IMG/VR virus record: IMGVR_UViG_3300049795_000023
Coordinates: 1 to 57,828 of that record
Direction: 5' to 3' (one strand)
Source of the DNA: a virus
Lineage: Duplodnaviria; Caudoviricetes
Length of the DNA: 57,828 nucleotides
Part shown: positions 26,174 through 51,234 of the stretch, in pieces
How positions within the stretch are numbered: position 1 is the first letter of the stretch
Layout of the letters: every line of letters starts with the position of its first letter
Position numbers and translations under genes: made by a program
Notes under the pieces: generated by a model
Told to the model about the DNA's origin: nothing
Seen by the model: the letters and a program-made list of their open reading frames with translations, nothing else
The model's database searches: none

Positions 26174-28059
26174 TCGTGTGTCTCCAGCACGAGAGTTTGC
26201 CAGACATTATCCAAGCCTTGTGCCTCGACGCCCACGCTGCGCACCAGGCCCAGGCGAGAAGTCACGCCCTCAACGTAGGAAACGAAACTGCCAGGCTTGA
26301 TGATCCCGGTTTCAGGCAGCACCGGCATGCGCAGCGTGTAGGGTGCCTGCCGGCCCGTGTCGCCGAGGATGGCCAGGCCACGCTGGCGCGCAACGACTTC
26401 GTCGGTGATGAGCGCGTCGACCGCCATGGGCGCCACGAGCGAGCCGTCGCTGCCGTCCTTCGTGATGCGCCCGAGAACGCCCTGCGTGACGCCGCTGACG
26501 TACACCCGATTGAATTCCTGTTTCGTCGTCCATCCGACCGTTTCGCCAACCGCGATGTCCGCGGGGATCGAGTAGTCGGGTACCACCTCTGCGGCCCAGT
26601 TCCACGGTGCTATTGGATAACGCGGAAGTATTCGCAGCGTCATGTCGGTGTCGTGTGGTTGTACGTAGCCACCGGCCGCCGCCGCAATGCGCGTTACCGC
26701 ATCCATGTAGCTGCCGCGGGAATTCCACACGCCGGCCGGCACCGCCCAATCTTCCATTCTGAAATCCAGATCCCAGCCCAGGGGGACGCCGTTGAAAGTC
26801 AACGCGTCTTCCATCAGTTGCTGCGCGGTGCGCTCGAACTCATTGGTAAATGTCAAAACCGGTGACCAGCGGTCGGCCAGGTAGGCATTCTTCCCGCGCC
26901 CGGTAACCGATAGACGAACCTGGCCAAACGACCTGTCGCGCTGAACGTCCTCAGCTAGCACACGGTACGCGTGCCCGTTGATCGTGGCTTCCAACTCCAC
27001 CGGCACGCCGTCGCTGTACTGCAGGTCGCTGAACGCCGACGAGTGCACGCTTGCCCGGAAGCCCCAGGTCCAAGAGTCCATGTCGAGCGTCAACGACATC
27101 CCGAAGCAGGTGATGGGAAGGTTGCCGTCGACTTTGCGTAAATCAAGGGTGTTGATCACGATGTATGCCTGTTTAACTGGAACAACAATTGTCCCGCTAG
27201 GTGGTTGCGCCGGGTGACGCTCGCAGTAGAACACCAGCTGCGTCGTGCCGGCCGGATCTTTGAATGTCAGCGCAACTGCGTCTGCCGGCGGCGGGATGTA
27301 GCAGCGATCATCTTCTGGCTGTGGCACAACCGGAAGTGCAATGCCCGCGGGCGGCGGGATACCGTCTTGATATTTGACGTAGGTCCACAGCTCCAGCGGC
27401 AGCGCAATGCCCCATCCGCCATCAAACGTACTGATGAGGCGAATGGCGTCCTGGTAGCGTCCTGTGGCCCATGCCCCGATGTAATTGAGCATGTCGGCGT
27501 AGCGCCCGACGACTTCGCCCACTGTCGGCAGTAAACAATCCTGGTAGCGCCCGGCGACCTGGTCATACACCGGCAGCCCGTCTTGATAGCGAGCAGTCAT
27601 CTCACCGTCGACGAAGATGCCATCTTGGTAATTGACGATAAGGTCGCTACCCCGGCTCAAGCCGTCTTGATGCGCTGCGATTGCCTCGCCGTCCAAACGC
27701 AAACTATCCTGATGTTTGGCTGCGAATGATTCCTGCATTGACAGCCCGTCTTGGTACAGGCCGTCAAAGCTCGCAAAATCACTCAGGCAATCTTGAAATT
27801 TAGAACTGACCTCTTCGGCCAGGGGGCGGTCGACGTTGATGTCAAACGTCGCTTCCGCACTAAAGCCTGGCAGCGGGACGGCAGCTGCCAGATCAGCGTC
27901 GTAGTTGATGCTGACAACCGCAGCGAACGCCGGCAGTGGAAGCGTCCCCAGCAAGACGGCTTCGTAGTCGGTCGGTTCGTGGGCTTCACCGAAGACGAGG
28001 CGGAGTGCAGACCCATCCGTCGACGCCGGCTGCTGGAAGACAAGACGGAAGATTGTCAT
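26170..28059 (-). CDS. tail tip/hub protein with 14-aa YQDG repeats
   Basis: Position in tail module; about 11 periodic repeats; C-terminal hub-like domain. Confidence 0.75.
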   Translation of the reverse strand: MTIFRLVFQQPASTDGSALRLVFGEAHEPTDYEAVLLGTLPLPAFAAVVSINYDADLAAAVPLPGFSAEATFDINVDRPLAEEVSSKFQDCLSDFASFDGLYQDGLSMQESFAAKHQDSLRLDGEAIAAHQDGLSRGSDLIVNYQDGIFVDGEMTARYQDGLPVYDQVAGRYQDCLLPTVGEVVGRYADMLNYIGAWATGRYQDAIRLISTFDGGWGIALPLELWTYVKYQDGIPPPAGIALPVVPQPEDDRCYIPPPADAVALTFKDPAGTTQLVFYCERHPAQPPSGTIVVPVKQAYIVINTLDLRKVDGNLPITCFGMSLTLDMDSWTWGFRASVHSSAFSDLQYSDGVPVELEATINGHAYRVLAEDVQRDRSFGQVRLSVTGRGKNAYLADRWSPVLTFTNEFERTAQQLMEDALTFNGVPLGWDLDFRMEDWAVPAGVWNSRGSYMDAVTRIAAAAGGYVQPHDTDMTLRILPRYPIAPWNWAAEVVPDYSIPADIAVGETVGWTTKQEFNRVYVSGVTQGVLGRITKDGSDGSLVAPMAVDALITDEVVARQRGLAILGDTGRQAPYTLRMPVLPETGIIKPGSFVSYVEGVTSRLGLVRSVGVEAQGLDNVWQTLVLETHE

Positions 28060-33100: not shown

Positions 33101-33858
33101 ATGTCTTCGACCTTGATTGCAAATTCACCAAGATCTATTTCCTGAGACAGCTTTACCGTACCGTGATAGTCGGCTGCGTCCGCGACAATCGTGTCTCTGA
33201 CAATTGTCTGAGTGCCGCCTCGCGTGAACGAGCGATTAGCAGCCGTACCAGGAAAGTCGAAACTCAGCGGGCTGCTGATGTCGAGCGTGACGATGTTGGC
33301 TTGATAATCATGATCGTCGTTGTAGGTGAAGGTGCGTTCCTCTACCGTTACGTCAATGACGCGCACGTATTGTTCCTTCTGATCCCCTTCGCCCTCATGC
33401 CAACGCAGGCAGAGCGTGCGGCCGATGGGTGGGATGCTGGCATTCAGGCGTTGAAACAGCTGGATCGAGCGCTGCCCGGCAATGTGATTTTCATAGAGAA
33501 AGCCTGGCCATTCATTGGCCGCGTTGAGATACGCTTCGACGCGGCTCGTCGCTTCTGCGCGCGTGTCGAAGATATCTCCGGTCGTGAAAAGTGTATTGCT
33601 GACCAGGGGGTCTGCCGGTGGAATGGCAATTATCAAATTACTTCCGGCGTATTTGTCCGTATCATCCGTCTGCACTGCGACGAAGATCTTTCGTGCCTTG
33701 ACCTGGCCGCCGGCGCGGGCCAGCTCGCTGATGTCGTCGAATATTTCGTTGCTGACAGCGCTCACAATGACATCGCTAGATGGCGGACCCCCGCCCTCAG
33801 GAACGTCATCCATGACCGACGACTTAATCAGTTTTACGTCGCCTTGTAGAATTGCCAT
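30106..33858 (-). CDS. large tail tip structural protein (1250 aa)
   Basis: Repeated D.G.G.LTG..G.INY.TG beta motifs; position downstream of tape measure. Confidence 0.8.
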   Translation of the reverse strand: MAILQGDVKLIKSSVMDDVPEGGGPPSSDVIVSAVSNEIFDDISELARAGGQVKARKIFVAVQTDDTDKYAGSNLIIAIPPADPLVSNTLFTTGDIFDTRAEATSRVEAYLNAANEWPGFLYENHIAGQRSIQLFQRLNASIPPIGRTLCLRWHEGEGDQKEQYVRVIDVTVEERTFTYNDDHDYQANIVTLDISSPLSFDFPGTAANRSFTRGGTQTIVRDTIVADAADYHGTVKLSQEIDLGEFAIKVEDIFVPLVPSSRTETALLDRRPSAQFSQTLALSPREVEVGGSTFSQRVKIGQENRSFNYVSILSPLPAPGSVFVHFRAQGSNYVVTDDGEGALTGSGSGTINYTTGSIQVTLGAMPDDRSAVIIYFGPNTAYTNRQGQLADFRKPSYTFDLDHDNIVPSSLAIEWTSAGDVVNASDNGTGKLTGDATGSIVYQTGILTIVPNSMIDAGGEFSITYNYKTMEEQSFTGLSPDSTGTINIELDAVPVAGTLRAEWLTVRETSISSGATSASGSTNKSSMTNSSSSNTTATTTAMVDTTKNYRSYTPEVAAAYNMPKEQSSVVASSVTYPDSYSMYAATGTSSPSWNMPTGIEYAVTTKAPVTTTTSSSTSGTGSASTSQGATYSTSSSQTAKNSVTVAHQITDDGDGSWFGTFGEILYGDKTFTLKVRNDYSEKAYESNYEEAKEFESMNETGQATTTAGGGASTTAASGGGGSATAKGGEFNNATCKETFGEDSLVVRYQTGSPSATSHTMTYQPPGVVLDLCPYTSDTVVPGSVRFTWMNNVYDDFEGTIYINRTNFDPGIGCGSMDYTAGTAKMAYYVVDGPASALTLNSLWTRKPREHIANITFNAILAPLQPSGLVFSVLDVSGQQLIGTSDNDGNLAGDFIHGKIDYQSGLVEVQFGSYVLDSGLTAEEKTQWWYNVDDIRVSDSKIWKPHPIDPETMRYNAVAYFYLPLDAEILGLDPVRLPQDGRVPIFRPGKFVVIGNTQSTSPATATNGGTVNCGRERLSRARLIGNNGVVISAGYTVNLNTGVLTFTDVTGYSQPVHVEHRIEDMRQIAEALIDGSLKLTSAVSHDYPIDDTYVSSALIMGDIKARVSIVFDEATFHPSWSNVQQGDPAPGTFNNAAYPIVVTNKGCLTERWAVKFTNTSAFQVIGEHVGVIAVGNTSDDCAPLNPASGEPYFEIPSEGWGLGWATGNVFRFNTVGGYYPAWVLQTVQQGAATVTDDKFVILARGSVDNPI

Positions 33859-42647: not shown

Positions 42648-43691
42648 TTAAGTCTTCGTCGCCGAGCGGTTGCCGTTGAAGTTGTCGTAGATCTTGCGCA
42701 GGTCGACATTTGCCCAGCCGCCCCCGCTCGAACGCTGCTGCTTGCCGGCGGCCTGCGCCTGCAGATTGGTTTGCTGCGACGTGTCGGTGTCCTCGTCGGC
42801 CTTCGCCAGCGCTGCCTTGATGTCGGCCTTCACATCAGCGACAGCCTTTCCCGAGCGGATGTAGGCGCTGGCCTTGTCGGGCATCTTGGCCAGGGTACAG
42901 AAAGCCTTGATTTCCTTCGCGCTGTTGATCGCCGTTTTGGCTTCGTCCACGGTCGCGCAATTCATGGCGATGAACGGGGCGTATTCCTCGACGCCGGCAG
43001 CTTTTGCGATGGCGGACACTTCTTCAGCGAATGCAGTCACGGTCTTAACTCCTTCGGGGGTTGGTTCGGCAGGCTTTGCCGCGGATGCCTTGAACATCTG
43101 CCGGACCTTGTCCGGCAGGTTGTCGAGCGCAAAGCAGGCCGTCACCTTGGCTTCGTCGGTGACCTTCGTCGCGAAGCCGAGATTCAGCGCTTCGGCTGCG
43201 GTCATGTAGGTTTCGGCGCTCATCAGCTTTTTCACATCGGCTTCGGATTTGCCGGTGCGCGCCATGTAGGTTGCGGTGATTGATGCGTCCATCTTCTTCA
43301 GGACTTCGATCACATCGGCCAACTCTGCGGCATTTCCGAAAACGCCAGCTGACGCGTTGTGAATCATCATCATCGAATTGACCGGCATCGAAATCGTCTT
43401 GCCGACCATGGCGATAACTGAGGCCATTGACGCGGCGATGCCCATCACCGTTACGTCAATTTCCAGGCCCGAATGCTTGAGTGCGTTGAAGATGGCAAAC
43501 CCATCAAAGACTGAGCCGCCTGGCGAATTGAGCATCAGCCTTGCCTTCTTGGCAGCGCCCTTCTTCGCTTCGAGTTCCGTGATGAAGTCTTTTGCTGTGA
43601 CGCCCCAGAAGCCAATTTCATCGTAAATGGCTAGATCAACGATCGGTTCGTCATTGACCTTCTTCGCTTCGATCGTGTACCAAGAGGACAT
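42648..43691 (-). CDS. ClpP-like prohead protease with scaffold-like C-terminus
   Basis: IYDEIG, NSPGGSV, AASMASVI, MMIHN, ETYMTA.EA. Confidence 0.92.
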   Translation of the reverse strand: MSSWYTIEAKKVNDEPIVDLAIYDEIGFWGVTAKDFITELEAKKGAAKKARLMLNSPGGSVFDGFAIFNALKHSGLEIDVTVMGIAASMASVIAMVGKTISMPVNSMMMIHNASAGVFGNAAELADVIEVLKKMDASITATYMARTGKSEADVKKLMSAETYMTAAEALNLGFATKVTDEAKVTACFALDNLPDKVRQMFKASAAKPAEPTPEGVKTVTAFAEEVSAIAKAAGVEEYAPFIAMNCATVDEAKTAINSAKEIKAFCTLAKMPDKASAYIRSGKAVADVKADIKAALAKADEDTDTSQQTNLQAQAAGKQQRSSGGGWANVDLRKIYDNFNGNRSATKT

Positions 43692-43716: not shown

Positions 43717-43756
43717 AGTTTAGACCGGTGATTACTGGAATTGCGGTCAGTTACTA
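43717..43756 (-). promoter_or_regulatory. putative activator-dependent late promoter
   Basis: TAGTAACTGACCGC-N20-TAAACT; same geometry as 51269-51308. Confidence 0.7.
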
Positions 43757-44215
43757 GCCTACATGTTTTCCTTCATCCTGAATGTCTCCAAAGTCTGTAG
43801 GTATGCCTGCGTCGTTAAGCGTTCTTTCGATTAGGTTTTGTCGAGAATTCATCATCGCCAGTCTTTTCAATGTATGAATTTCACGTTCTGTGCAGTCCCG
43901 TTGCTGCTGTTCAACGCGTTTTAGTTGCTCTCGCAGGAACTCGCGCATTTCGTCTTGAGCGCCATCCAGCTTGTGCTGCAAACGCAAATACAGTCGCGTT
44001 CCTACGCCACCGATTACCGCCAGCGCGATGGCCAGCACCAGGCCGAACATGGCCAGGGTATTGCCCATAAGACTTGGGATCGCCGTATCCAGGTGCTGGT
44101 ATACGTATAGAAGACTCAAGCTGGCCAGCCCAGCTGCGATGCCGATCAAGACTCTTGACCAGGTCAATTGTTTGAGAATTGCCCATCCACGATCTGTATC
44201 CATGTCCATGCTCAT
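43754..44215 (-). CDS. two-TM membrane protein with coiled-coil tail, holin candidate
   Basis: Two hydrophobic helices plus charged C-terminus; several in-frame Met at the start. Confidence 0.5.
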   Translation of the reverse strand: MSMDMDTDRGWAILKQLTWSRVLIGIAAGLASLSLLYVYQHLDTAIPSLMGNTLAMFGLVLAIALAVIGGVGTRLYLRLQHKLDGAQDEMREFLREQLKRVEQQQRDCTEREIHTLKRLAMMNSRQNLIERTLNDAGIPTDFGDIQDEGKHVG

Positions 44216-44225
44216 GATTTACCGT

Positions 44226-44420
44226 TTAGCGAAGTAGAAAAATCAAGACTTCTTCATCGTCGCGCGTCCTGCGCTGCACCCGCTGCTTTGTGCCATGACG
44301 CTGGTATGCACCGTCCGCCCCGCCACCCGCAACGCTAGCTGCGTCGTTCGGCAGAACGTCGCGAAACTGGCGCAGCGCGAATTGACGCTGCCCAAACTGC
44401 CGTTGACCGAATTGCCTCAT
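44226..44420 (-). CDS. 64-aa protein with RQF pentapeptide repeats
   Basis: ATGA-coupled; RQFGQRQFGQRQFALRQF...DDEEVLIFLLR. Confidence 0.7.
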   Translation of the reverse strand: MRQFGQRQFGQRQFALRQFRDVLPNDAASVAGGGADGAYQRHGTKQRVQRRTRDDEEVLIFLLR

Positions 44421-45688
44421 GAGCCATCGAGCGTGGCGCTTTGGCGATTACCACTGCTGTCGAAGGTTGTGAGCACCCGGTACTTCGAGCCGTCAACAGA
44501 CTTGAAGCCTTCCGTTGCGCTGCCGGCGCCCGTCGTGCGCCCGGTCGTAGCTGCAAGGATGATTCGCAAGACATCGGCAAACGCGTGTCCACCTTCGAGC
44601 GTCCGCGTCATCAGCTCGTCGACAATTTCGCCAGCTGTCGGGCAATCACCGCCACCGGCCGAAGCGCTAATTCTGAAGTCCTGACTGATATCGCGCACGA
44701 CTGCAGCGCTTATGGCAAAGCCCTGTGTGCTGTCAAAGCTGACGGCGTTATACAGCGCAAAATCCTGGCCAATGTCGATCTGGACGCCCGTTTGCAGCGC
44801 GAAGCCCTGAGCACAATCGACGCCGACCGCGTTGTAAACCGCGAAGTCCTGAGTGCAGTCGACGCTAAGCGTGGCGCGTACCGCGAAATCTTGGGCAAGG
44901 TCGACGCTTACTGAGCCGGTGGCGTCAATGTCGAAGTCTTGCGCAGCGTCGAGCGTTACGGCATTCAGCACGGCAAAGCTACCGCTCACATCTGCCGTTA
45001 CTGAAGTGTAGACCGCGAAATCCTGAGCCACGTCAACGGCTACTGCGCTAAGCACTGCAAAGCTGCCGCTCACATCAACTGTTACTGACGTGTAGACTGC
45101 AAATCCTTGCGTCACGTCGACGTTAACTGCATTTTGAACCGCGAATCCCTGCACGGCATCGACCGTCACAGCATTCTGAACAGCGAACCCCTGAACGGCA
45201 TCGACCGTCACAGCGTTCTGCGCTGCAAAGCTGCCGCTCACATCGACCGTTACTGATGTGTAGACTGCAAAGCTGCCGCTCACATCGACTGTTACTGAGT
45301 TGTAGACTGTAAAGCCCTGAACTATGTCAACGAAAATATCGCCGACGACAAATTCAACAGTCAGCGCGCCCAGATTCGTGACGATGGGGACCGCGGGGTC
45401 GTATTCCCACAGATCGCCGACAAGGTAGTAAGTGCCGTCTGCTCCGGGCGTATAAACCAGCGTCAGGTCTTCTGCGACCTCGACCGTCCCGGAACTTGGC
45501 CAGGACGTTATTTCAAATCTATATTCCTTGGCTGCATCTGCCGGCAAGGACAGGCTTGCGTAGACGAATGACGGATTGATGCCGCCGCCCCCGGCAGCTA
45601 TCGCATCACCGCGAACGCCAAAACCGTCGTAAAGAGATACGACGGTTTTGCCCGAAATCAGGCTGAGGATGTCGACGCGAAATGTCAC
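44417..45688 (-). CDS. structural protein with about 16 x 14-aa repeats
   Basis: VDxxQxFAVxxxVT repeats. Confidence 0.8.
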   Translation of the reverse strand: MTFRVDILSLISGKTVVSLYDGFGVRGDAIAAGGGGINPSFVYASLSLPADAAKEYRFEITSWPSSGTVEVAEDLTLVYTPGADGTYYLVGDLWEYDPAVPIVTNLGALTVEFVVGDIFVDIVQGFTVYNSVTVDVSGSFAVYTSVTVDVSGSFAAQNAVTVDAVQGFAVQNAVTVDAVQGFAVQNAVNVDVTQGFAVYTSVTVDVSGSFAVLSAVAVDVAQDFAVYTSVTADVSGSFAVLNAVTLDAAQDFDIDATGSVSVDLAQDFAVRATLSVDCTQDFAVYNAVGVDCAQGFALQTGVQIDIGQDFALYNAVSFDSTQGFAISAAVVRDISQDFRISASAGGGDCPTAGEIVDELMTRTLEGGHAFADVLRIILAATTGRTTGAGSATEGFKSVDGSKYRVLTTFDSSGNRQSATLDGS

Positions 45689-45996
45689 GTTGCTGTCAGC
45701 CTGAAATTACCACGCGGGCCTGACCCGAGCCGGATGAAGCCTTCGTAAGTCGTGCCGGGAACTAGCGAAGGACTGACCAGGGCCAGGTCTGCGCCGCTGT
45801 CTGTCGTGCCGGACAGCGTGAAGAGGTAGGTTGCCCCGGTCGTGTCGAAGACATGCACCACCAGAGCCTGTGAAGTCTGAGCAGTCGCGTTGTTCAGCAC
45901 GAAATCTGTAAATGTCAAAGTACCAGCCTTGCGGCTTGGCGGAAACCGCGCAACGACCCGCGCGGGCCAGTAGGGGACGCTGCGAAACAACGGCAT
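45685..45996 (-). CDS. small beta-rich hypothetical (structural) protein
   Basis: Coupled within the cluster. Confidence 0.65.
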   Translation of the reverse strand: MPLFRSVPYWPARVVARFPPSRKAGTLTFTDFVLNNATAQTSQALVVHVFDTTGATYLFTLSGTTDSGADLALVSPSLVPGTTYEGFIRLGSGPRGNFRLTAT

Positions 45997-45999
45997 GGC

Positions 46000-46464
46000 T
46001 TAACGCTCAAGCACGTAGATCGTCGCGCTGTAGGTGAGCGAATCTGACGGCGCTGTCAGCTTGCCGACGATCGTAGTGTTGCCCTGGTTCGCCTTCGGCC
46101 GGCAGATTTCAGGAAACCACTGGATATAGCCGGCGCGCACATTGAAGACGTGTTCCGTGAGCGCAACCAGTGTGCCAGAGCTGGCCTGGGTCGTATTCGC
46201 AACCTCAGCCGTAAACCCAGCGGCAGCGTCGTTCGGTTCCATCGGAATAGGCGTGGGGCCAGACCCGCCCGAACCGCTGGTGGCATTGCCGCGCCCGATG
46301 CTCAGGCGAATCTGTTCGTCCTGAGCATCGCCGCTGTCTGATGTCTGACCAATCTCGAAGCCAATGATCTCGATGGGTTTGTCGTCAGCCGGTGTCAGCT
46401 CGAACAGATCAACTGCGGCGGTGACCGCTACGGCTTGCAGGACGACGGTGTAAACGCGTGGCAT
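46000..46464 (-). CDS. beta-rich hypothetical (structural) protein
   Basis: GAAGGGG RBS before ATG 46464. Confidence 0.7.
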   Translation of the reverse strand: MPRVYTVVLQAVAVTAAVDLFELTPADDKPIEIIGFEIGQTSDSGDAQDEQIRLSIGRGNATSGSGGSGPTPIPMEPNDAAAGFTAEVANTTQASSGTLVALTEHVFNVRAGYIQWFPEICRPKANQGNTTIVGKLTAPSDSLTYSATIYVLER

Positions 46465-46475
46465 GAAATACCCCT

Positions 46476-47174
46476 TCAGTGATTGAGAATTGAAAACGGA
46501 AATTTGCAACGTAGAGCATCTGACGGCGTAGACGCACTCGCAGGATTGATGGCAAAGCCAACTAGTGTCGCCTGCGTGTTGCCGTTAGTAAATGTTACGC
46601 TCAAGTCATTTGCGTTTACTTTATAGAAATGCAGCAAGTCGCGTGATGAAGCTGACGAACGGGCGGCGAAATCGACTTCTGGCGAAACTGACGCTGTTAG
46701 TTGGCCATCTCCGTAAACGCCAGCGCCGCCGACAAGAATGCCACCTGCAGGACATGCAAGCGTCACTGACATGGGCGAAAACTGATTGCTGTCCGCAGAT
46801 GTCACTGGCGTTGTGTCTGGCGTCGTTTGATCGACGTTTTCAGCACAGAACGCCATGAATTTTGCACCCCAGCCAGTCCAAGCCGAAACCGAAACTTGCA
46901 GAGTGCGTGTGCCAGGCGATGGTGCCAATATCCTGTACACATAGGTGTTTGTGTTTTGAGCAAATGACGAATTGCGTACCGCAGTCATCGGTACACCGTC
47001 TAATGTCGGTGTATTCCATGTCCCGTCATCTCCTCCACCGAATAAACCGACGAGTAGATATATTGCTAGATTGGAACCAGAACTAACAACGACTGACAAA
47101 TCCTGACTCAGTGGACTCGGACCTACAGCGCCGACGTATTCGACAATGCTACCGGATTGAATTGTGACTGACAT
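46476..47174 (-). CDS. beta-sandwich/lectin-like hypothetical protein
   Basis: AAGGA RBS; Ser/Thr/Val-rich; DGVPMT..., YRILAPS.GT. Confidence 0.7.
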   Translation of the reverse strand: MSVTIQSGSIVEYVGAVGPSPLSQDLSVVVSSGSNLAIYLLVGLFGGGDDGTWNTPTLDGVPMTAVRNSSFAQNTNTYVYRILAPSPGTRTLQVSVSAWTGWGAKFMAFCAENVDQTTPDTTPVTSADSNQFSPMSVTLACPAGGILVGGAGVYGDGQLTASVSPEVDFAARSSASSRDLLHFYKVNANDLSVTFTNGNTQATLVGFAINPASASTPSDALRCKFPFSILNH

Positions 47175-47209
47175 ATCGTCCTTTAATTGTGACGCAGCTC
47201 GACAGCCAT

Positions 47210-47392
47210 CTACGGCGCTGCGCGCCCGACATACAGGACGACACCGCTGGACGTATGAAAACTAACATTCACTGGCACTTTGTTGTAAACCGCAAAGTTC
47301 TGTGTAATGTCGACCGTCAACGATGCCGGCACATTTAACTTAGCGGAATCGCCAATTGGAACAGAAGCTAGAGGATAGTTGCCGAGTAACAT
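47210..47392 (-). CDS. 60-aa adaptor-like protein with one 14-aa repeat
   Basis: MLLGNYPLASVPIG...VDITQNFAVYNKV. Confidence 0.65.
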   Translation of the reverse strand: MLLGNYPLASVPIGDSAKLNVPASLTVDITQNFAVYNKVPVNVSFHTSSGVVLYVGRAAP

Positions 47393-47393
47393 A

Positions 47394-48431
47394 TCAGTTA
47401 CTCAACATGATCTGCCAGTTGCTATTATCGGACTGAAGCAGCGCCCACTTGCCAGCAGTCGCCGCCAGGATGGCAGTTCCTGCTGAGCCTCCAGCCTGCG
47501 GAACAACGTTGCTCGATGCCGAAACCACGAGCTGAGCCTGATGATTCTTGATGAACAACCAACGACCAGGGTAGCTCGCTGCCGCCGGCAATGTGGCAGT
47601 GCAAGTAGAGCCTGACTTGTTGTTGATGATTGAAGTTTCGGTGGCGACCACGGTGAAGTCGGCCGTCTTCGTGACTGGGACACCCGTGCCGAGTGCACTG
47701 CCGGTGAGCTGGCCGAGCGCAGCCACCTCTGTGTCGCTTATCGTAAGCGACTGCACTCTGGTCGTAGAGCCAATGGGCGTAGTGCCGATACGAGCCTGGC
47801 AACCCGTAGCAGTGTCAGTCCAATTCTCACTCGCATTGAACGAAAACGCGCCGGCATTGCCGCTGTAGACAGTCGCTTTGTAGCCGGAAGCGAGGAATGA
47901 GAAAAACGATGCACCGGTGACGATTGCGCTTTTCGAGGCATTGGTTCCGTTCGCCCGGCGCATCACCACCTGAGGGGTAGTCGCAAAGGAATCAATTCCA
48001 ATTCCGCTGGCAACGCCGTCCGCTCCGCCCACCTGGATGCGCTGCACAGGTGACCACGCTGGCAAGTCGACAGCGTTGCCGTTGCAGACGATCGTAGAGG
48101 GCGTTGCGGCAGCGACCTTGGCTGCGGTTACCGCGAGCCCTACGCGCTTGGTGCCGGCTGCAAATGAGACTGCAGCGCCAGCATTGGAGCTGGCGTGCAC
48201 CGTTGTCCGGGTGAAGACGCCTCCTGTGCCCCACGTACCAATTCCAGTTTCCCAGGCGCCAGTCGGGACGCCTGACGCGTCGACCTCTTCGGCATAGTAG
48301 TAGGCTGTATCGCCGTTTGCGCACACTGAGGCGAATGTGCGAAAGCCCACCACCGCACCGGCCAGCGTCAATGCGCCGGTGCCGGTGGTGGTTGTCGTCT
48401 CCAGGACGCGGTCAGCGACAATTTCAGTCAT
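47394..48431 (-). CDS. fibre-like protein
   Basis: ADRVLETTTTTGTG..TL.GA N-domain, WETGIGT, C-terminal LPAAA...LQSD..NWQIM domain seen in phage fibres. Confidence 0.75.
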   Translation of the reverse strand: MTEIVADRVLETTTTTGTGALTLAGAVVGFRTFASVCANGDTAYYYAEEVDASGVPTGAWETGIGTWGTGGVFTRTTVHASSNAGAAVSFAAGTKRVGLAVTAAKVAAATPSTIVCNGNAVDLPAWSPVQRIQVGGADGVASGIGIDSFATTPQVVMRRANGTNASKSAIVTGASFFSFLASGYKATVYSGNAGAFSFNASENWTDTATGCQARIGTTPIGSTTRVQSLTISDTEVAALGQLTGSALGTGVPVTKTADFTVVATETSIINNKSGSTCTATLPAAASYPGRWLFIKNHQAQLVVSASSNVVPQAGGSAGTAILAATAGKWALLQSDNSNWQIMLSN

Positions 48432-48443
48432 GGCGCCGCCGGC

Positions 48444-48941
48444 TTACAGCGTGTCGAACTTGAATCGGATTGACCAGGGGTTTGACGCTCCCGCGGCCGC
48501 CGACGCGTTGATGATCCGCTTGAACCAGAATGCCTTCGCCTGGCCAGGGGGGATATCCGCGCCCAACGCCACCGAAGCGCCCTCGCTGGCACCAGCTGAG
48601 AACGTCACGCCGGACGGCGCTGTATTCTCGTTGGCGATTGCGGTTTCGTTGGCGTTGACCGCGGCCGCGCCCCAGCCGAACTCAATTGACGAATCCGAAG
48701 CAGGCGTGTCTGAAAGAACCCAGGCCTTTGGTGACAGCATCGACAGCGTTGCATGGGCGTTGTGCACGTAGACGCAGCGGTATTCCGTGTCGCCGGCAAG
48801 CGCTTCCGCGCTGGAAACCGTGTCGAAGATGTTCCCCGACAGCACGGTCGACGACTTGGCGCCGCCAATCGACGCATCCTTGTCGGTGTTGCTCGATCCG
48901 CCGCTTAGACGGATCTCGATATCGCCAGATACGATTGACAT
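48444..48941 (-). CDS. structural protein paralogous to the N-domain of the 1250-aa tail protein
   Basis: I.SGDI.I..S...GG...NIFD.VS...A.AG...YR..YV vs I.QGDV.L..S...GGG...NEIFDDIS..ARAGG...RKIFV. Confidence 0.75.
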   Translation of the reverse strand: MSIVSGDIEIRLSGGSSNTDKDASIGGAKSSTVLSGNIFDTVSSAEALAGDTEYRCVYVHNAHATLSMLSPKAWVLSDTPASDSSIEFGWGAAAVNANETAIANENTAPSGVTFSAGASEGASVALGADIPPGQAKAFWFKRIINASAAAGASNPWSIRFKFDTL

Positions 48942-48949
48942 GACAGTCC

Positions 48950-51004
48950 TTATTGAATAGTGGTTTCAACGGCAGTGGATTTGATGATGTTTCCGTAAAC
49001 GTCTCGCTCAACCGTGGTTTCTGTCTGACGGTTAGGCAATTCGACGACGACATCGGGCGGCTGCACGGTATTGTTGACGATGACTTCCGGCGCCGGCAGG
49101 TTGTTCACGACAACCTCAGTCGGCTTGACATCGTTTGTCACCTCGACCTTGACTTCCGGCGCCGGCAGGTTGTTCACGACAACCTCAGTCGGCTCGACAT
49201 CGTTTGTCACCTCGACCTTGACTTCCGGCGCCGGTAGGTTGTTGTGCACGTTGAACACCGGCGCTGCGAGCGGCTCGGGCTTGTTCGCCGTCATCAGCGC
49301 TGCCGTGCCGGCGAACAGCTTTGCGACCAGATCGACAACGTCAATTTCATTCTTCCAAGCTGGCTTGTCGCTCTTGACCGGCTTCTTTTGGCCAGGGTCG
49401 GGCTTGCCGGTCTTCGGATCAACTTGAAGCGGGTCGGGCGGCCCCAGGCCGAACGCGTCTTCGCGTTCCTTGTCTTCCTTGCGCTCTTCGTCGACTGTTA
49501 CGGCGTCTTCTCCGCGCTCCGCGATGACGGATTGCCGCGAACGGAAGCCAGCATCGACTTCCATCTGTCGGCCTTGAATGTCCTGGAACGGGTGAATGTC
49601 TGGCCAGGCATCCGTTGCCCATTCGCAATTCTGCCAATCCTTGGCGTCTTCCAGCGGAATGACATCGTACGCAACGCCGACCGCGACCCATGCGTCACGC
49701 ACCTTCTGGCAGAACTGTGGAATTAGAATCAACCATTGGCGTTGCTCGCAGAAACGGCGCCATTCGTTGATGATGATCCGCAGCGTCCGGTCGGATATGT
49801 TGACCAGGTCACCGCTGAAAATCTCATTCGGCAGGTTGCGCCCGGCGGCAAGCGCCATGTTTTCGGTTCTGACGTATTCGCTGTAGGTCGTGCCGGCTTC
49901 CGGCGGATTGCTCCACGTCATATCCTCGTTAGGCCCCAGCACATTCAGCGCGCCTGGTTCCATCGCAATGCTCGCCGTGCCGTCCGTGTTCATATTGAGT
50001 GGCATGCCAGTCAGCGGGTCGTGCGTTGGCGACATGGCTGTACCGGTCGTCTGCTTGATAAAGCCAACCAGCAGATTCGCGAGCTTTTGACGTTCCAGGA
50101 CTGAGCCGCGGTAGTCAAGCATCTCGCGCATGTAGGTTAAGACAGGCGCAGCATCGGGAACGCCGCGAATCTGCCCCGCGCGCAGCGGCTCATACAGGTG
50201 ACACACGTCACTAGCCGGTATGCGCACCAGATCGCTCATGTTGACCGACGCTGTAACGCCGTCAGTGGGGTGTTCTTTGTAGAAATAGTAGGCAACGCGG
50301 CGCCCGCGTTTGTCGAATTCGATCCCCTGACGCACCCTGTTGCCGACCATCGCTTGCGGCCAGTAGTCAGAATCCAGCTCGACAGGACAGTAATCGCTTT
50401 CCAGAATCTGCAATTGCAGTGGGATCTTCATCCCAAACGAGTCGTCCCGATAGCGAAATCGGATGAACGCCTCGCCAGAAACCATCCATTCCAAGGTAGA
50501 CAGCAATTCCAGCCCATAGAAGTCCAGAACACAGTCGGCGTCAGCCTGCTTGCACCACTCGATCCACTCTTCGACCTGACGAGCACGTTTCTCTTTGGCC
50601 AGGCCTCGCTTTGGACGCGGCATGATCCCCACGCCGATGAGCGCCGATCCCCAGCGCCGATCTGCCGCACTGCTGCCCCAGTCGTTGCGCGAGGCATCGC
50701 GCGACCGGTCCTGCAGCTTCTGTAAACCCATCGTCGCGACGTTGGGACCGGACCGCGGCGGGTTCCAACCCCTCAACCTGCGTCCGTTGCCTGCCCCATC
50801 GTAGCGGTTGACCGCCGAAACCAGCCCGTTTTCTGAAACATCAAAACCCTGAGCAGTTTTTTCTTTTGACGGTGCTGATTTCGGCGATGACTTTGACGGC
50901 TTGCTACGCGGTTGCTGCGCTTGTGAAGACTGTGAATCGCCGAAAAGATGCCTGACGCTCTTCTCGGCCAGGGGCGGCCGGCCGGGCTTTCGTCCGCCAG
51001 CCAT
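48950..51004 (-). CDS. portal protein, lambda gpB family, with C-terminal repeat extension
   Basis: RSRDASRND, LDFYGL, GIEFD..GRRVAY, R.GQIRGVP, IAERGED; TGATG overlap with gpW. Confidence 0.92.
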   Translation of the reverse strand: MAGGRKPGRPPLAEKSVRHLFGDSQSSQAQQPRSKPSKSSPKSAPSKEKTAQGFDVSENGLVSAVNRYDGAGNGRRLRGWNPPRSGPNVATMGLQKLQDRSRDASRNDWGSSAADRRWGSALIGVGIMPRPKRGLAKEKRARQVEEWIEWCKQADADCVLDFYGLELLSTLEWMVSGEAFIRFRYRDDSFGMKIPLQLQILESDYCPVELDSDYWPQAMVGNRVRQGIEFDKRGRRVAYYFYKEHPTDGVTASVNMSDLVRIPASDVCHLYEPLRAGQIRGVPDAAPVLTYMREMLDYRGSVLERQKLANLLVGFIKQTTGTAMSPTHDPLTGMPLNMNTDGTASIAMEPGALNVLGPNEDMTWSNPPEAGTTYSEYVRTENMALAAGRNLPNEIFSGDLVNISDRTLRIIINEWRRFCEQRQWLILIPQFCQKVRDAWVAVGVAYDVIPLEDAKDWQNCEWATDAWPDIHPFQDIQGRQMEVDAGFRSRQSVIAERGEDAVTVDEERKEDKEREDAFGLGPPDPLQVDPKTGKPDPGQKKPVKSDKPAWKNEIDVVDLVAKLFAGTAALMTANKPEPLAAPVFNVHNNLPAPEVKVEVTNDVEPTEVVVNNLPAPEVKVEVTNDVKPTEVVVNNLPAPEVIVNNTVQPPDVVVELPNRQTETTVERDVYGNIIKSTAVETTIQ
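49081..49243. repeat. 69-bp in-frame tandem repeat (about 2.4 copies) in the portal 3' end
   Basis: Encodes NNLPAPEVKVEVTNDVxPTEVVV. Confidence 0.92.
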
Positions 51005-51234
51005 CACCTGCACCCTGAATCATCGAACCCACGACCGCCGAAATACGCCCTGAACGTGCGAATCGGTGGCGTTGTACCTTCGGCTACCGCCAGCTCATCC
51101 ATGATGATCTGGCGAGCCGTCTTAAGCTCTTCCATGGAGCGGTAACTTACGCTCTGATTGCCAATTGTGACTTGCTTTGCCCCGCTGGCAATGGCTTCGT
51201 TCACATTTATCAGGTCTTGCGTGGTAAATGCCAT
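51004..51234 (-). CDS. gpW-like head-tail joining protein
   Basis: AIASG...V......V.YRSMEEL..A. Confidence 0.85.
   Translation of the reverse strand: MAFTTQDLINVNEAIASGAKQVTIGNQSVSYRSMEELKTARQIIMDELAVAEGTTPPIRTFRAYFGGRGFDDSGCR

What the first reader, a model, noticed from the sequence alone, without database searches (positions are those of the whole stretch)
44226..48941. Second, head- or neck-linked appendage module between portal and protease that mirrors the tail-tip module
Established: in lambda-type heads portal and protease genes are adjacent. Seen: eight tightly coupled structural-looking genes intervene. The 165-aa protein aligns by eye with the N-domain of the 1250-aa tail protein. 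A 345-aa fibre-like protein is followed by a 60-aa protein carrying exactly one copy (VDITQNFAVYNKV) of the 14-aa repeat present about 16 times in the 423-aa protein. Three beta-rich proteins and a 64-aa RQF-repeat protein complete the set. Inference: an undescribed modular filament in which the repeat protein is a ruler donating strands to many copies of the 165-aa subunit. The single-repeat protein would cap it and attach adhesins, with anchoring at the portal vertex or capsid.
Basis: partly seen in the sequence, partly recalled or inferred. Interest (0 to 1): 0.8.

Follow-up and report, generated by a model that had tools for sequence, protein, structure and literature searches.

The report
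Rope-and-bead fibre genes beside the portal
A phage carries, between its portal and protease genes, the parts of a beads-on-a-string fibre, a kind of appendage seen only recently by cryo-EM in a few other phages, here built from a much more widespread and so far unnamed protein family.

Summary
Nine tightly packed minus-strand ORFs lie between a lambda-family portal and a ClpP-type protease. The 423-aa protein has 16 tandem 14-aa units, and the 60-aa protein carries one clean unit.

Two copies of the 165-aa protein are predicted to dock on two consecutive repeats by strand pairing (ipSAE 0.76; best of 3 controls 0.02).

Independent support comes from relatives. In 10 of 12 IMG/VR loci, and in Vibrio phages KVP40 and EniLVp02, a homologue of the 165-aa protein lies beside a 14-aa-repeat "rope". 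That rope is fused to a neck part: a head-tail adaptor, a GP4 gp77-like collar domain, or the tail-sheath stabiliser gp15.

It is not undescribed. Rope-and-bead fibres are known from GP4, Bas63/Sf14, VP1 and A1002. The bead family here (phrog_13135; 3068 cluster representatives) shows no sequence relation to GP4 gp80.

The anchor in this phage is not identified. The region looks like two joined cassettes (165-345-60 and 232-169-103-423).

The "mirror" of the tail tip is partly real. The 1250-aa protein shares the first ~58 residues with the bead, and the 629-aa tail protein has its own 14-aa repeats.

Verdict: new variant of a known kind.

The parts
48444..48941 (-). g165, the proposed bead subunit: a 165-aa beta-sandwich of family phrog_13135
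   Evidence: PHROG E 2.3e-21. 1527 relatives of about 165 aa in the 90%-clustered collection. 3068 representatives at E<=1e-3 in the 50%-clustered library. AF2 model pLDDT 88.6. Predicted to bind the repeats of g423.
47394..48431 (-). g345, a fibre or adhesin with a conserved N-terminal domain of about 110 aa and a variable remainder
   Evidence: A like N-domain stands in the gene after the g165 homologue in L004-L008, L012 and L014 (alignment). tblastn also finds it in L005, L010, L011 and L014. No Pfam or PHROG family.
47210..47392 (-). g60, a mini-rope: the N-terminal leader typical of ropes plus one clean 14-aa unit
   Evidence: BLASTP to the g423 repeats E 2.4e-7. By eye its leader resembles the N-termini of the ropes in L004, L005, L013 and L014. 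GC3 is 0.54. It may be a working cap or adaptor, or the remnant of a rope gene's 5' end.
46476..47174 (-). g232, a beta-rich protein of unknown role
   Evidence: Weak match to phrog_553 'minor tail protein', E 1.5e-5. A relative lies upstream of the g169 homologue in L145 (phmmer 3.9e-6). GC3 is 0.44, the lowest in the operon.
46000..46467 (-). g169 (155 aa from its 15th codon), a single jelly-roll protein of a second widespread family
   Evidence: 497 relatives of about 155 aa. AF2 pLDDT 88.4. Jelly-roll matches, best Z 9.3; phage cement proteins at Z 6.6-7.2. 0 of 80 loci holding it also hold g165.
45685..45996 (-). g103, a short protein with an Arg/Pro/aromatic N-terminal leader
   Evidence: The gene right after g169 homologues begins with a like leader: strict pattern in 5 of 75 loci, looser forms by eye in many more. 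In L135 one 551-aa protein joins this leader, repeats and a C-terminal domain like that of g423 (phmmer 6e-10).
44417..45688 (-). g423, the rope: an N-terminal domain (aa 1-119), 16 units of 14 aa (aa 120-343) and a C-terminal domain (aa 344-423)
   Evidence: One full-length relative, 48% identical, has 15 units. The repeats match the ropes next to g165 homologues in other loci. No Pfam or PHROG family.
44660..45331 (-). The 16 tandem 14-aa units within g423, with shared motif D-hydrophobic-x-x-x-aromatic
   Evidence: Register printed. Consensus unit. Residues 148-203 were used as the partner.
44226..44420 (-). g64, an ORF with RQF repeats; coding status uncertain
   Evidence: Translation. No family. 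Nothing shows that it belongs to the fibre.
43754..44215 (-). g153, a predicted membrane protein; membership in the module uncertain
   Evidence: Only weak matches to transmembrane families.
33685..33858 (-). First 58 residues of the 1250-aa tail protein, related to the N-terminus of g165
   Evidence: hhalign of A1 against A2: probability 79%, E 1.6e-5. The KVP40 bead against phrog_6128: E 5.2e-5.
27355..27804 (-). About 8-9 units of 14 aa in the N-terminal part of the 629-aa tail protein: a possible second rope at the tail tip
   Evidence: Lag-14 identity 0.33. Register printed. The rope of KVP40 gp15 matches this protein's family, phrog_6079, at E 4.7e-8.

Best explanation
The region encodes a beads-on-a-string fibre. 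The 423-aa protein is a rope. Each of its 16 units of 14 aa lies as a beta strand in the groove between the first and the last strand of one copy of the 165-aa beta-sandwich. Up to 16 beads would then be threaded per rope, and the number of repeats would set the length of the filament (inferred).

The 345-aa protein is the exchangeable adhesin. The 60-aa protein, which has a rope leader and one unit, may tie the adhesin to a bead (inferred, untested).

By analogy with relatives, the filament most likely hangs at the head-tail junction as a whisker. The anchor in this phage is not identified.

The jelly-roll g169, with g232 and g103, belongs to a second mobile cassette that has been joined to the first. 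The slot between portal and protease is a swap site for fibre genes in this phage lineage.
For: COMPLEX PREDICTION. Two g165 copies with g423 residues 148-203 gave ipSAE 0.71, 0.76 and 0.76, against 0.02 for the best of 3 controls. That mark was reached by 58 of 80 solved complexes and 2 of 110 mismatched pairs. Partner pLDDT was at least 52, and the runs agreed in at least 42% of contacts. Copy 1 pairs residues 157-161 with rope 174-178. Copy 2 pairs 159-161 with rope 160-163, exactly one unit away. Residues 8 and 10 of the first strand also touch the rope.

CO-OCCURRENCE IN UNCULTURED PHAGES. Of 12 IMG/VR loci with a g165 homologue, 10 have a 14-aa-repeat protein downstream. The other two, L003 and L012, end before one could appear.

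ROPES JOINED TO NECK PARTS.
- In L004 and L007 the rope is the N-terminal extension of a head-tail adaptor (phrog_442, E 3.5e-17 and 1.1e-16). L005 looks alike by eye.
- In L009 and L014 the rope precedes a GP4 gp77-type domain (Pfam PF23148, E 7.9e-17 and 5.2e-9).
- In KVP40 and EniLVp02 the tail-sheath stabiliser gp15 carries about 14 and about 11 C-terminal 14-aa units. The very next gene is the g165 homologue.

FUSED FORM. One of 7 fused forms read (P0345) has a 14-periodic leader joined to a g165 domain.

FOLD. 27 of the 50 listed rows in the second-look fold comparison are chaperone-usher pilins, which take a donor strand (Z 5.8-7.2).

PUBLISHED PRECEDENT. Rope-and-bead fibres with this logic are described in passages read.

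SWAP SITE. The relatives ACF1 and PCA1 carry other fibre genes in the same slot.
Against: - Binding is predicted, not measured.
- The partner's own confidence is modest (pLDDT 53-69).
- The alignment behind the rope had only 2 rows.
- g165 shows no sequence relation to the known bead GP4 gp80 (hhalign probability 0.5%).
- No phage whisker chain is among the 50 rows listed in each of three fold searches. The best Z of 7.7 is within the range common for unrelated sandwiches.
- g423 has neither an adaptor domain nor a gp77-like domain, so a neck position here rests on analogy.
- In this phage g165 and g423 are separated by five genes.
- A related 14-aa repeat stands at the end of a gpJ-like tail protein in Aeromonas phage BUCT551, with no g165 homologue found in that phage group. 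Such repeats can therefore exist without this bead.
- No virion proteomics or micrograph exists for this uncultured phage.
Confidence: 0.55

Rival explanations
1. The rope-and-bead filament is real but hangs on the tail, as a side fibre or at the tail tip, and not at the neck or capsid.
For: - The first ~58 residues of g165 resemble the start of the 1250-aa tail protein.
- The 629-aa tail protein has 14-aa units of a family that also matches the KVP40 gp15 rope.
- g232 weakly matches a minor tail protein family.
- Genes in the same slot of ACF1 and PCA1 are annotated as tail fibre or tail protein.
- In A1002 the chain-like fibres run along the tail.
Against: - In every relative where the rope is fused to something recognisable, that part sits at the head-tail junction: adaptor, gp77-like collar domain, or gp15.
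- The cassette sits inside head gene modules in three lineages.
Confidence: 0.2
2. g423 is an ordinary self-standing fibre shaft, for example a trimeric beta-spiral. g165 is then only a small adaptor or assembly factor and does not bind every repeat.
For: - The 14-aa unit has alternating hydrophobic residues with a Gly/Gln turn. This resembles fibre-shaft repeats (a recalled pattern, not tested).
- BUCT551 has about 18 such units at the end of its gpJ-like protein, without a g165 homologue.
Against: - The complex prediction places two beads on consecutive units at a 14-residue offset, with controls at 0.00-0.02.
- In L004, L005 and L007 the repeats are an extension of a 12-fold adaptor, and in KVP40 of a 6-fold gp15. 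This fits a single-chain rope better than a trimer.
- Solved ropes work this way.
Confidence: 0.15
3. The region is a recombination scar. Pieces of two fibre cassettes were joined, g60 being the orphaned 5' end of a rope gene and g103/g423 a split gene. Part of the set no longer works.
For: - g60 has a rope leader plus one unit and then stops.
- In L135 a single protein holds what g103 and g423 hold between them.
- GC3 of g60 (0.54) and g232 (0.44) lies below that of neighbours (0.62-0.80).
- The g169 family never travels with g165 elsewhere (0 of 80 loci).
Against: - All ORFs are intact and translationally coupled.
- A 48%-identical full-length relative of g423 keeps the same three-part build.
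- A 96-97% identical copy of g165 and of g169 exists elsewhere.
Confidence: 0.1

Closest known systems
Ralstonia podophage GP4 Fiber-1: bead gp80, rope gp79, fibre-tail adaptor gp77. Zheng et al. 2023 J Mol Biol is not held; it is known here only through PMC13730344 and PMC12609058.
   Same: A rope threads small beta-sandwich beads. The bead gene stands just before the rope gene. The gp77 domain (PF23148) is the C-terminal anchor of the ropes in L009 and L014.
   Different: GP4 beads are phrog_240 and are unrelated in sequence to g165. They bind as dimers, five per rope. The GP4 rope units are about 20 aa by eye, against 14 aa here. GP4 is a podophage.
Collar-whisker complex of myophages Bas63 and Sf14 (PMC12609058, passages read)
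   Same: The rope is an extension of a neck-bound collar protein. Beads sit 'on a string', and the rope completes their incomplete sandwiches. The position is at the head-tail junction. This matches the rope-anchor fusions in L004, L005, L007, L009, L014 and KVP40.
   Different: Bas63 has two whisker dimers per rope. Here there are 16 units with one monomer predicted per unit. The whisker has an N-terminal helix, which the g165 model lacks.
Chain-like fibre of Pseudomonas podophage A1002: nozzle-rope gp39 with gp40 and gp41 (PMC13730344, sections 9 and 11 read)
   Same: A long rope with many sites (11 dimers). An Ig-like domain ends the rope and an anchor domain sits at the other end, like the three-part build of g423. 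Beads are 147-171 aa.
   Different: The A1002 rope is part of the nozzle and the fibre wraps the tail. It uses two bead proteins.
Bead-chain neck fibres of Anabaena myophage A-1(L) (PMC10966104, passages read)
   Same: A neck-anchored filament of about 16 beads, about 100 nm long. It is encoded away from the other tail genes.
   Different: The beads are trimers joined head to tail, without a rope.
Chaperone-usher pili (FimA, PapA, CfaB): donor-strand complementation
   Same: The g165 model resembles these pilins more often than anything else (27 of 50 rows, Z 5.8-7.2). The predicted strand lies between the first and last strands, as a donor strand does (the pilin geometry is recalled).
   Different: All strands here come from one separate rope rather than from the next subunit. 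There is no usher or chaperone. The Z values are middling, so this is an analogy and not membership.

Membership tests
Rope-and-bead phage fibres (GP4 Fiber-1, Bas63/Sf14 whiskers, VP1, A1002) | A rope: a polypeptide stretch with tandem docking sites | tested here: met
   16 units of 14 aa in g423.
Rope-and-bead phage fibres (GP4 Fiber-1, Bas63/Sf14 whiskers, VP1, A1002) | A small beta-sandwich bead (140-171 aa in the solved cases) encoded with the rope | tested here: met
   g165 is 165 aa and all-beta. Its family lies next to ropes in 10 of 12 IMG/VR loci and in KVP40 and EniLVp02. In this window five genes separate the two.
Rope-and-bead phage fibres (GP4 Fiber-1, Bas63/Sf14 whiskers, VP1, A1002) | The rope strand augments or completes the bead's sheet | tested here: met
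   By prediction only: ipSAE 0.76 against a best control of 0.02, with strand 157-161 pairing with the rope. No experiment.
Rope-and-bead phage fibres (GP4 Fiber-1, Bas63/Sf14 whiskers, VP1, A1002) | The bead is homologous to GP4 gp80 and the Bas63 whisker | tested here: not met
   hhalign of the g165 family against the gp80 family: probability 0.5%. The two are different PHROGs, 13135 and 240. The fold comparison is inconclusive.
Rope-and-bead phage fibres (GP4 Fiber-1, Bas63/Sf14 whiskers, VP1, A1002) | The rope is anchored to the neck or tail through a collar domain, or as an extension of a neck protein | tested here: inconclusive
   Met in relatives. The end domains of g423 match no family, so the anchor here is unknown.
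Chaperone-usher pilins | An Ig-like fold lacking its last strand, which is supplied in trans | tested here: inconclusive
   Z 5.8-7.2 over 104-122 residues for 27 of 50 rows. This is within the range that unrelated sandwiches reach.
Lambda-type head module | Lambda-family portal, ClpP-type protease, gpD-like decoration protein and gpE-like capsid protein, in that order | tested here: met
   Pfam PF05136, PF00574, PF02924 and PF03864. The portal-protease adjacency is broken by the insert, as it is in ACF1 and PCA1.
Trimeric beta-spiral fibre shafts (adenovirus fibre type) | A repeat of about 15 aa with a set hydrophobic pattern, forming a homotrimer | not tested
   The pattern likeness is recalled only. 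No trimer prediction was run because the single complex job went to the bead-rope test.

The most novel reading that the evidence does not exclude
A very large protein family without a name (phrog_13135) would be a pilin-like bead that threads onto 14-aa-repeat ropes. It would build whiskers of programmable length at the head-tail junction in siphoviruses and in T4-like Vibrio phages such as KVP40. The same rope-and-domain principle would be used a second time in one virion, at the tail tip, between the rope of the 629-aa protein and the bead-like start of the 1250-aa protein.
Probability: 0.35. Interest if true: 0.75.

Novelty: new variant of a known kind. Interest (0 to 1): 0.62.

Why it matters
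Rope-and-bead fibres are known from only a handful of cryo-EM structures published from 2023 to 2026.

If this reading is right, the principle is far more common than those cases suggest. It would give a first function to a family with thousands of members. It would explain the unexplained C-terminal extension of gp15 in KVP40-like phages. It would also offer a simple ruler: repeat number should equal bead number and set filament length, which can be tested in a cultured phage.

The work also marks the portal-protease gap of this phage lineage as a swap site for adhesin genes. That bears on predicting host range from phage genomes.

Tried and rejected
SEARCHES THAT FOUND NOTHING USEFUL
- DNA search of the region against cultured phages: no match.
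- g423 against IMG/VR by patterns and against phages by tblastn: none. The word-based protein search found only one relative.
- PDB sequence searches with the g165 profile, g345, g423, g232, g169 and g135: nothing below E 0.2.
- ESM Atlas look-ups for g423 and for its C-terminal domain: only unnamed phage clusters.
- Earlier findings of this scan: none.
- Portal relatives in IMG/VR are only about 34% identical and gave no usable synteny.

FOLD AND PROFILE COMPARISONS
- For g165, no match at E<=0.001 in Foldseek 'pdb'. Best Z was 7.7 in both VIA searches. No GP4, Bas63 or other phage whisker chain is among the 50 rows listed in each. BFVD gave one uncharacterised siphovirus protein (E 8.8e-8).
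- hhalign of the GP4 gp80 family against g165, g135 and g169: probabilities 0.5%, 0.2% and 0.2%.

IMPRESSIONS NOT BORNE OUT
- A by-eye likeness between g232 and the N-terminal parts of the fused proteins P0255 and P0327 was not confirmed by BLASTP at E 0.01.
- A strict pattern for the g103 leader fits only 5 of 75 downstream genes. Looser forms are an impression only.

LITERATURE LIMITS
- The GP4 structure paper is not held. What is said about GP4 comes second-hand from two later papers.
- No supplements were read. They may hold repeat sequences of the solved ropes that would allow a direct comparison.
- Four literature searches found no paper on the g165 family, on a 14-aa rope, or on the KVP40 gp15 extension. 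This covers the held library only.

Full report
WHAT IS THERE

The window is a complete virus record with direct terminal repeats. Its late genes run on the minus strand in this order:
- small and large terminase and a gpW-like 80-aa protein;
- a lambda-family portal at 48950-51013;
- nine ORFs;
- a ClpP-type protease-scaffold at 42648-43691, a gpD-like decoration protein and a gpE-like capsid protein;
- the tail genes of a siphovirus.

The nine ORFs encode 165, 345, 60, 232, 169, 103, 423, 64 and 153 aa. The gaps between them run from -34 to +35 nt.

The 423-aa protein has 16 units of 14 aa in residues 120-343. The 60-aa protein holds one clean unit.

THE SLOT

The closest cultured relatives are the siphoviruses Acidovorax phage ACF1 and Curvibacter phage PCA1. 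Their backbone proteins are about 40-50% identical to those of the window (morphology from passages of PMC8851203 and PMC9763317).

Both relatives also carry six or seven genes between portal and protease. These are different genes from the ones here. ACF1 has a collagen-like tail-fibre protein there, and PCA1 has a gene annotated as tail fibre. The gap between portal and protease is thus a swap site for fibre genes in this lineage.

THE 165-AA PROTEIN

It belongs to phrog_13135, a family of unknown function. The family is very large:
- 1527 relatives of nearly constant length in the 90%-clustered collection;
- 3068 representatives at E<=1e-3 in the 50%-clustered library, 1998 at <=1e-10 and 347 at <=1e-30. 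Of the 150 best, 123 are no longer than 200 aa and 27 are longer.

The AF2 model is confident (pLDDT 88.6, pTM 0.85) and is an all-beta sandwich. No solved structure matches it clearly. Foldseek gives nothing at E<=0.001, and the best Z is 7.7. In the second-look comparison, 27 of the 50 listed rows are chaperone-usher pilins or pilin domains, at Z 5.8-7.2. These proteins accept a donor strand. I treat this as a lead and not as membership.

THE ROPE LINK

Twelve IMG/VR loci hold a homologue that is 50-58% identical to the 165-aa protein.

In ten of them a protein with 14-aa periodicity follows within a few kilobases. Seven of these ropes (L004, L005, L006, L007, L009, L013, L014) show lag 14 as their best lag, with identity 0.29-0.55. 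L008, L010 and L011 are counted from tblastn hits to the repeats. The other two loci, L003 and L012, end too early to tell.

The ropes begin with a short Gly/Pro-rich leader like that of the 60-aa protein, judged by eye. They end in recognisable anchors:
- In L004 and L007 the anchor is a head-tail adaptor (phrog_442, E 3.5e-17 and 1.1e-16). L005 is alike by eye.
- In L009 and L014 it is the Pfam domain named after the GP4 fibre-tail adaptor gp77 (E 7.9e-17 and 5.2e-9).

In KVP40-like Vibrio phages the homologue (33% identical, E 5e-13) sits between gp15 and gp16. KVP40 gp15 is 450 aa. Its Pfam gp15 domain ends at residue 232. The rest is about 14 units of 14 aa, with lag-14 identity 0.36.

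A second Straboviridae phage, EniLVp02, has about 11 such units on its 385-aa gp15, again followed directly by the homologue.

The units of all three groups share an Asp, a hydrophobic residue and, five positions after the Asp, an aromatic residue.

One of seven fused proteins I read (P0345) has a 14-periodic leader joined to a g165 domain.

THE DIRECT TEST

I gave the one complex job to two copies of the 165-aa protein plus four units of the rope (residues 148-203).
- The score was 0.71, 0.76 and 0.76 in three runs, against 0.00, 0.02 and 0.01 for the three controls.
- The tool's mark was reached by 58 of 80 solved complexes and by 2 of 110 mismatched pairs. These counts hold only roughly, because my own alignments were used.
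- Partner pLDDT was at least 52, and the runs agreed in at least 42% of contacts.
- The last strand of copy 1 (157-161) pairs with rope residues 174-178. That of copy 2 (159-161) pairs with rope residues 160-163, one unit away. Residues 8 and 10 of the first strand also touch the rope.

It is a prediction, not a measurement.

WHAT IS ALREADY KNOWN

The architecture is already in print.
- In podophage GP4, five dimers of gp80 are strung on a separate rope protein, and gp77 is a collar on the adaptor.
- In A1002, eleven dimers form augmented sheets with a rope that ends in an Ig-like domain (PMC13730344, sections 9 and 11 and passages).
- In myophage Bas63, whisker dimers sit 'such as beads on a string' on the N-terminal rope of a neck collar protein. 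The rope completes their incomplete sandwiches (PMC12609058, passages).
- A-1(L) has neck fibres of about 16 beads without a rope (PMC10966104, passages).

The present system differs from these in four respects:
- Its bead is unrelated in sequence to GP4 gp80 (hhalign probability 0.5%; phrog_240 against phrog_13135).
- Its unit is 14 aa, with one monomer predicted per unit rather than a dimer per site.
- It has 16 units.
- It occurs in siphoviruses and T4-like myoviruses.

TWO CASSETTES, NOT ONE

The 169-aa ORF (155 aa from its 15th codon) is a second abundant family, with 497 relatives. Its model is a jelly roll (pLDDT 88.4; best Z 9.3; phage cement proteins at Z 6.6-7.2).

None of 80 loci holding it has the 165-aa protein within 6 kb. 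Its homologues are followed at once by a gene of very variable length. In several loci that gene begins with an Arg/Pro/aromatic leader like that of the 103-aa protein (strict pattern in 5 of 75).
- In L135 such a gene ends in a domain like the C-terminus of the 423-aa protein (phmmer 6e-10).
- In L183 it holds like repeats (4.2e-6).
- In L145 a relative of the 232-aa protein stands upstream (3.9e-6).

I therefore read the region as cassette 1 (165, 345, 60) joined to cassette 2 (232, 169, 103, 423). The 423-aa protein carries repeats of the kind that accompany the 165-aa family.

THE TAIL-TIP MIRROR

The mirror is partly real. The first 58 residues of the 165-aa family align with the start of the 1250-aa protein's family (probability 79%, E 1.6e-5). 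Pairwise BLASTP does not show this.

The 629-aa tail protein has about 8-9 units of 14 aa. The rope of KVP40 gp15 matches that protein's family, phrog_6079, at E 4.7e-8. Whether these two tail parts touch was not tested.

WHAT REMAINS OPEN

- The anchor of the 423-aa protein in this phage.
- The roles of the 60-, 232-, 169- and 103-aa proteins.
- Whether the 64-aa ORF is a gene at all.
- Whether the 14-aa repeat can also stand alone. It may do so at the end of the gpJ-like protein of Aeromonas phage BUCT551, where no bead homologue was found.

Noticed in passing
window 27355-27804 (-), with L001 4594-5946: The 629-aa tail protein has about 8-9 units of 14 aa with a Tyr/His-Gln-Asp core. The rope on KVP40 gp15 matches this protein's family (phrog_6079, E 4.7e-8). 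A second rope may exist at the tail tip, next to the small proteins of 129 and 135 aa.
   Followed up: partly
L001 4594-6549 (KVP40); L214 2722-4399 (EniLVp02): The tail-sheath stabiliser gp15 of these Vibrio phages carries a C-terminal extension of about 14 and about 11 tandem 14-aa units. The next gene is the phrog_13135 protein. Four literature searches found no mention of this.
   Followed up: partly
window 49081-49243 (-): The C-terminal part of the portal protein holds 2.4 copies of a 69-bp (23-aa) tandem repeat, 97% matching. The portal is 687 aa, with a long tail beyond the Pfam domain.
   Followed up: no
L213 1116-5432 (Aeromonas phage BUCT551, Casjensviridae): The 1438-aa gpJ-like tail protein ends in about 18 tandem 14-aa units related to the ropes. 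A 453-aa protein follows it. No phrog_13135 homologue was found in Aeromonas phages.
   Followed up: partly
L133-L212: The 155-aa jelly-roll family of g169 is always followed, within about 30 nt, by a gene of 61 to 1586 aa. That gene often begins with an Arg-rich leader, which looks like another adaptor-plus-variable-fibre pair.
   Followed up: partly
proteins P0345 and P0389: P0345 joins a 14-periodic leader to a g165 domain in one chain. P0389 holds two g165 domains in tandem. Both are metagenomic gene calls, so merged genes cannot be ruled out.
   Followed up: partly
L117 208-3432 (Acidovorax phage ACF1): The large terminase gene of ACF1 is about 1074 codons long. It matches the window's terminase in two pieces, with about 940 nt between them, which suggests an inserted element such as an intein.
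   Followed up: no
window 46476-47392 (-): g232 and g60 have a lower third-position GC (0.44 and 0.54) than the surrounding late genes (0.62-0.80). This fits recent acquisition.
   Followed up: no
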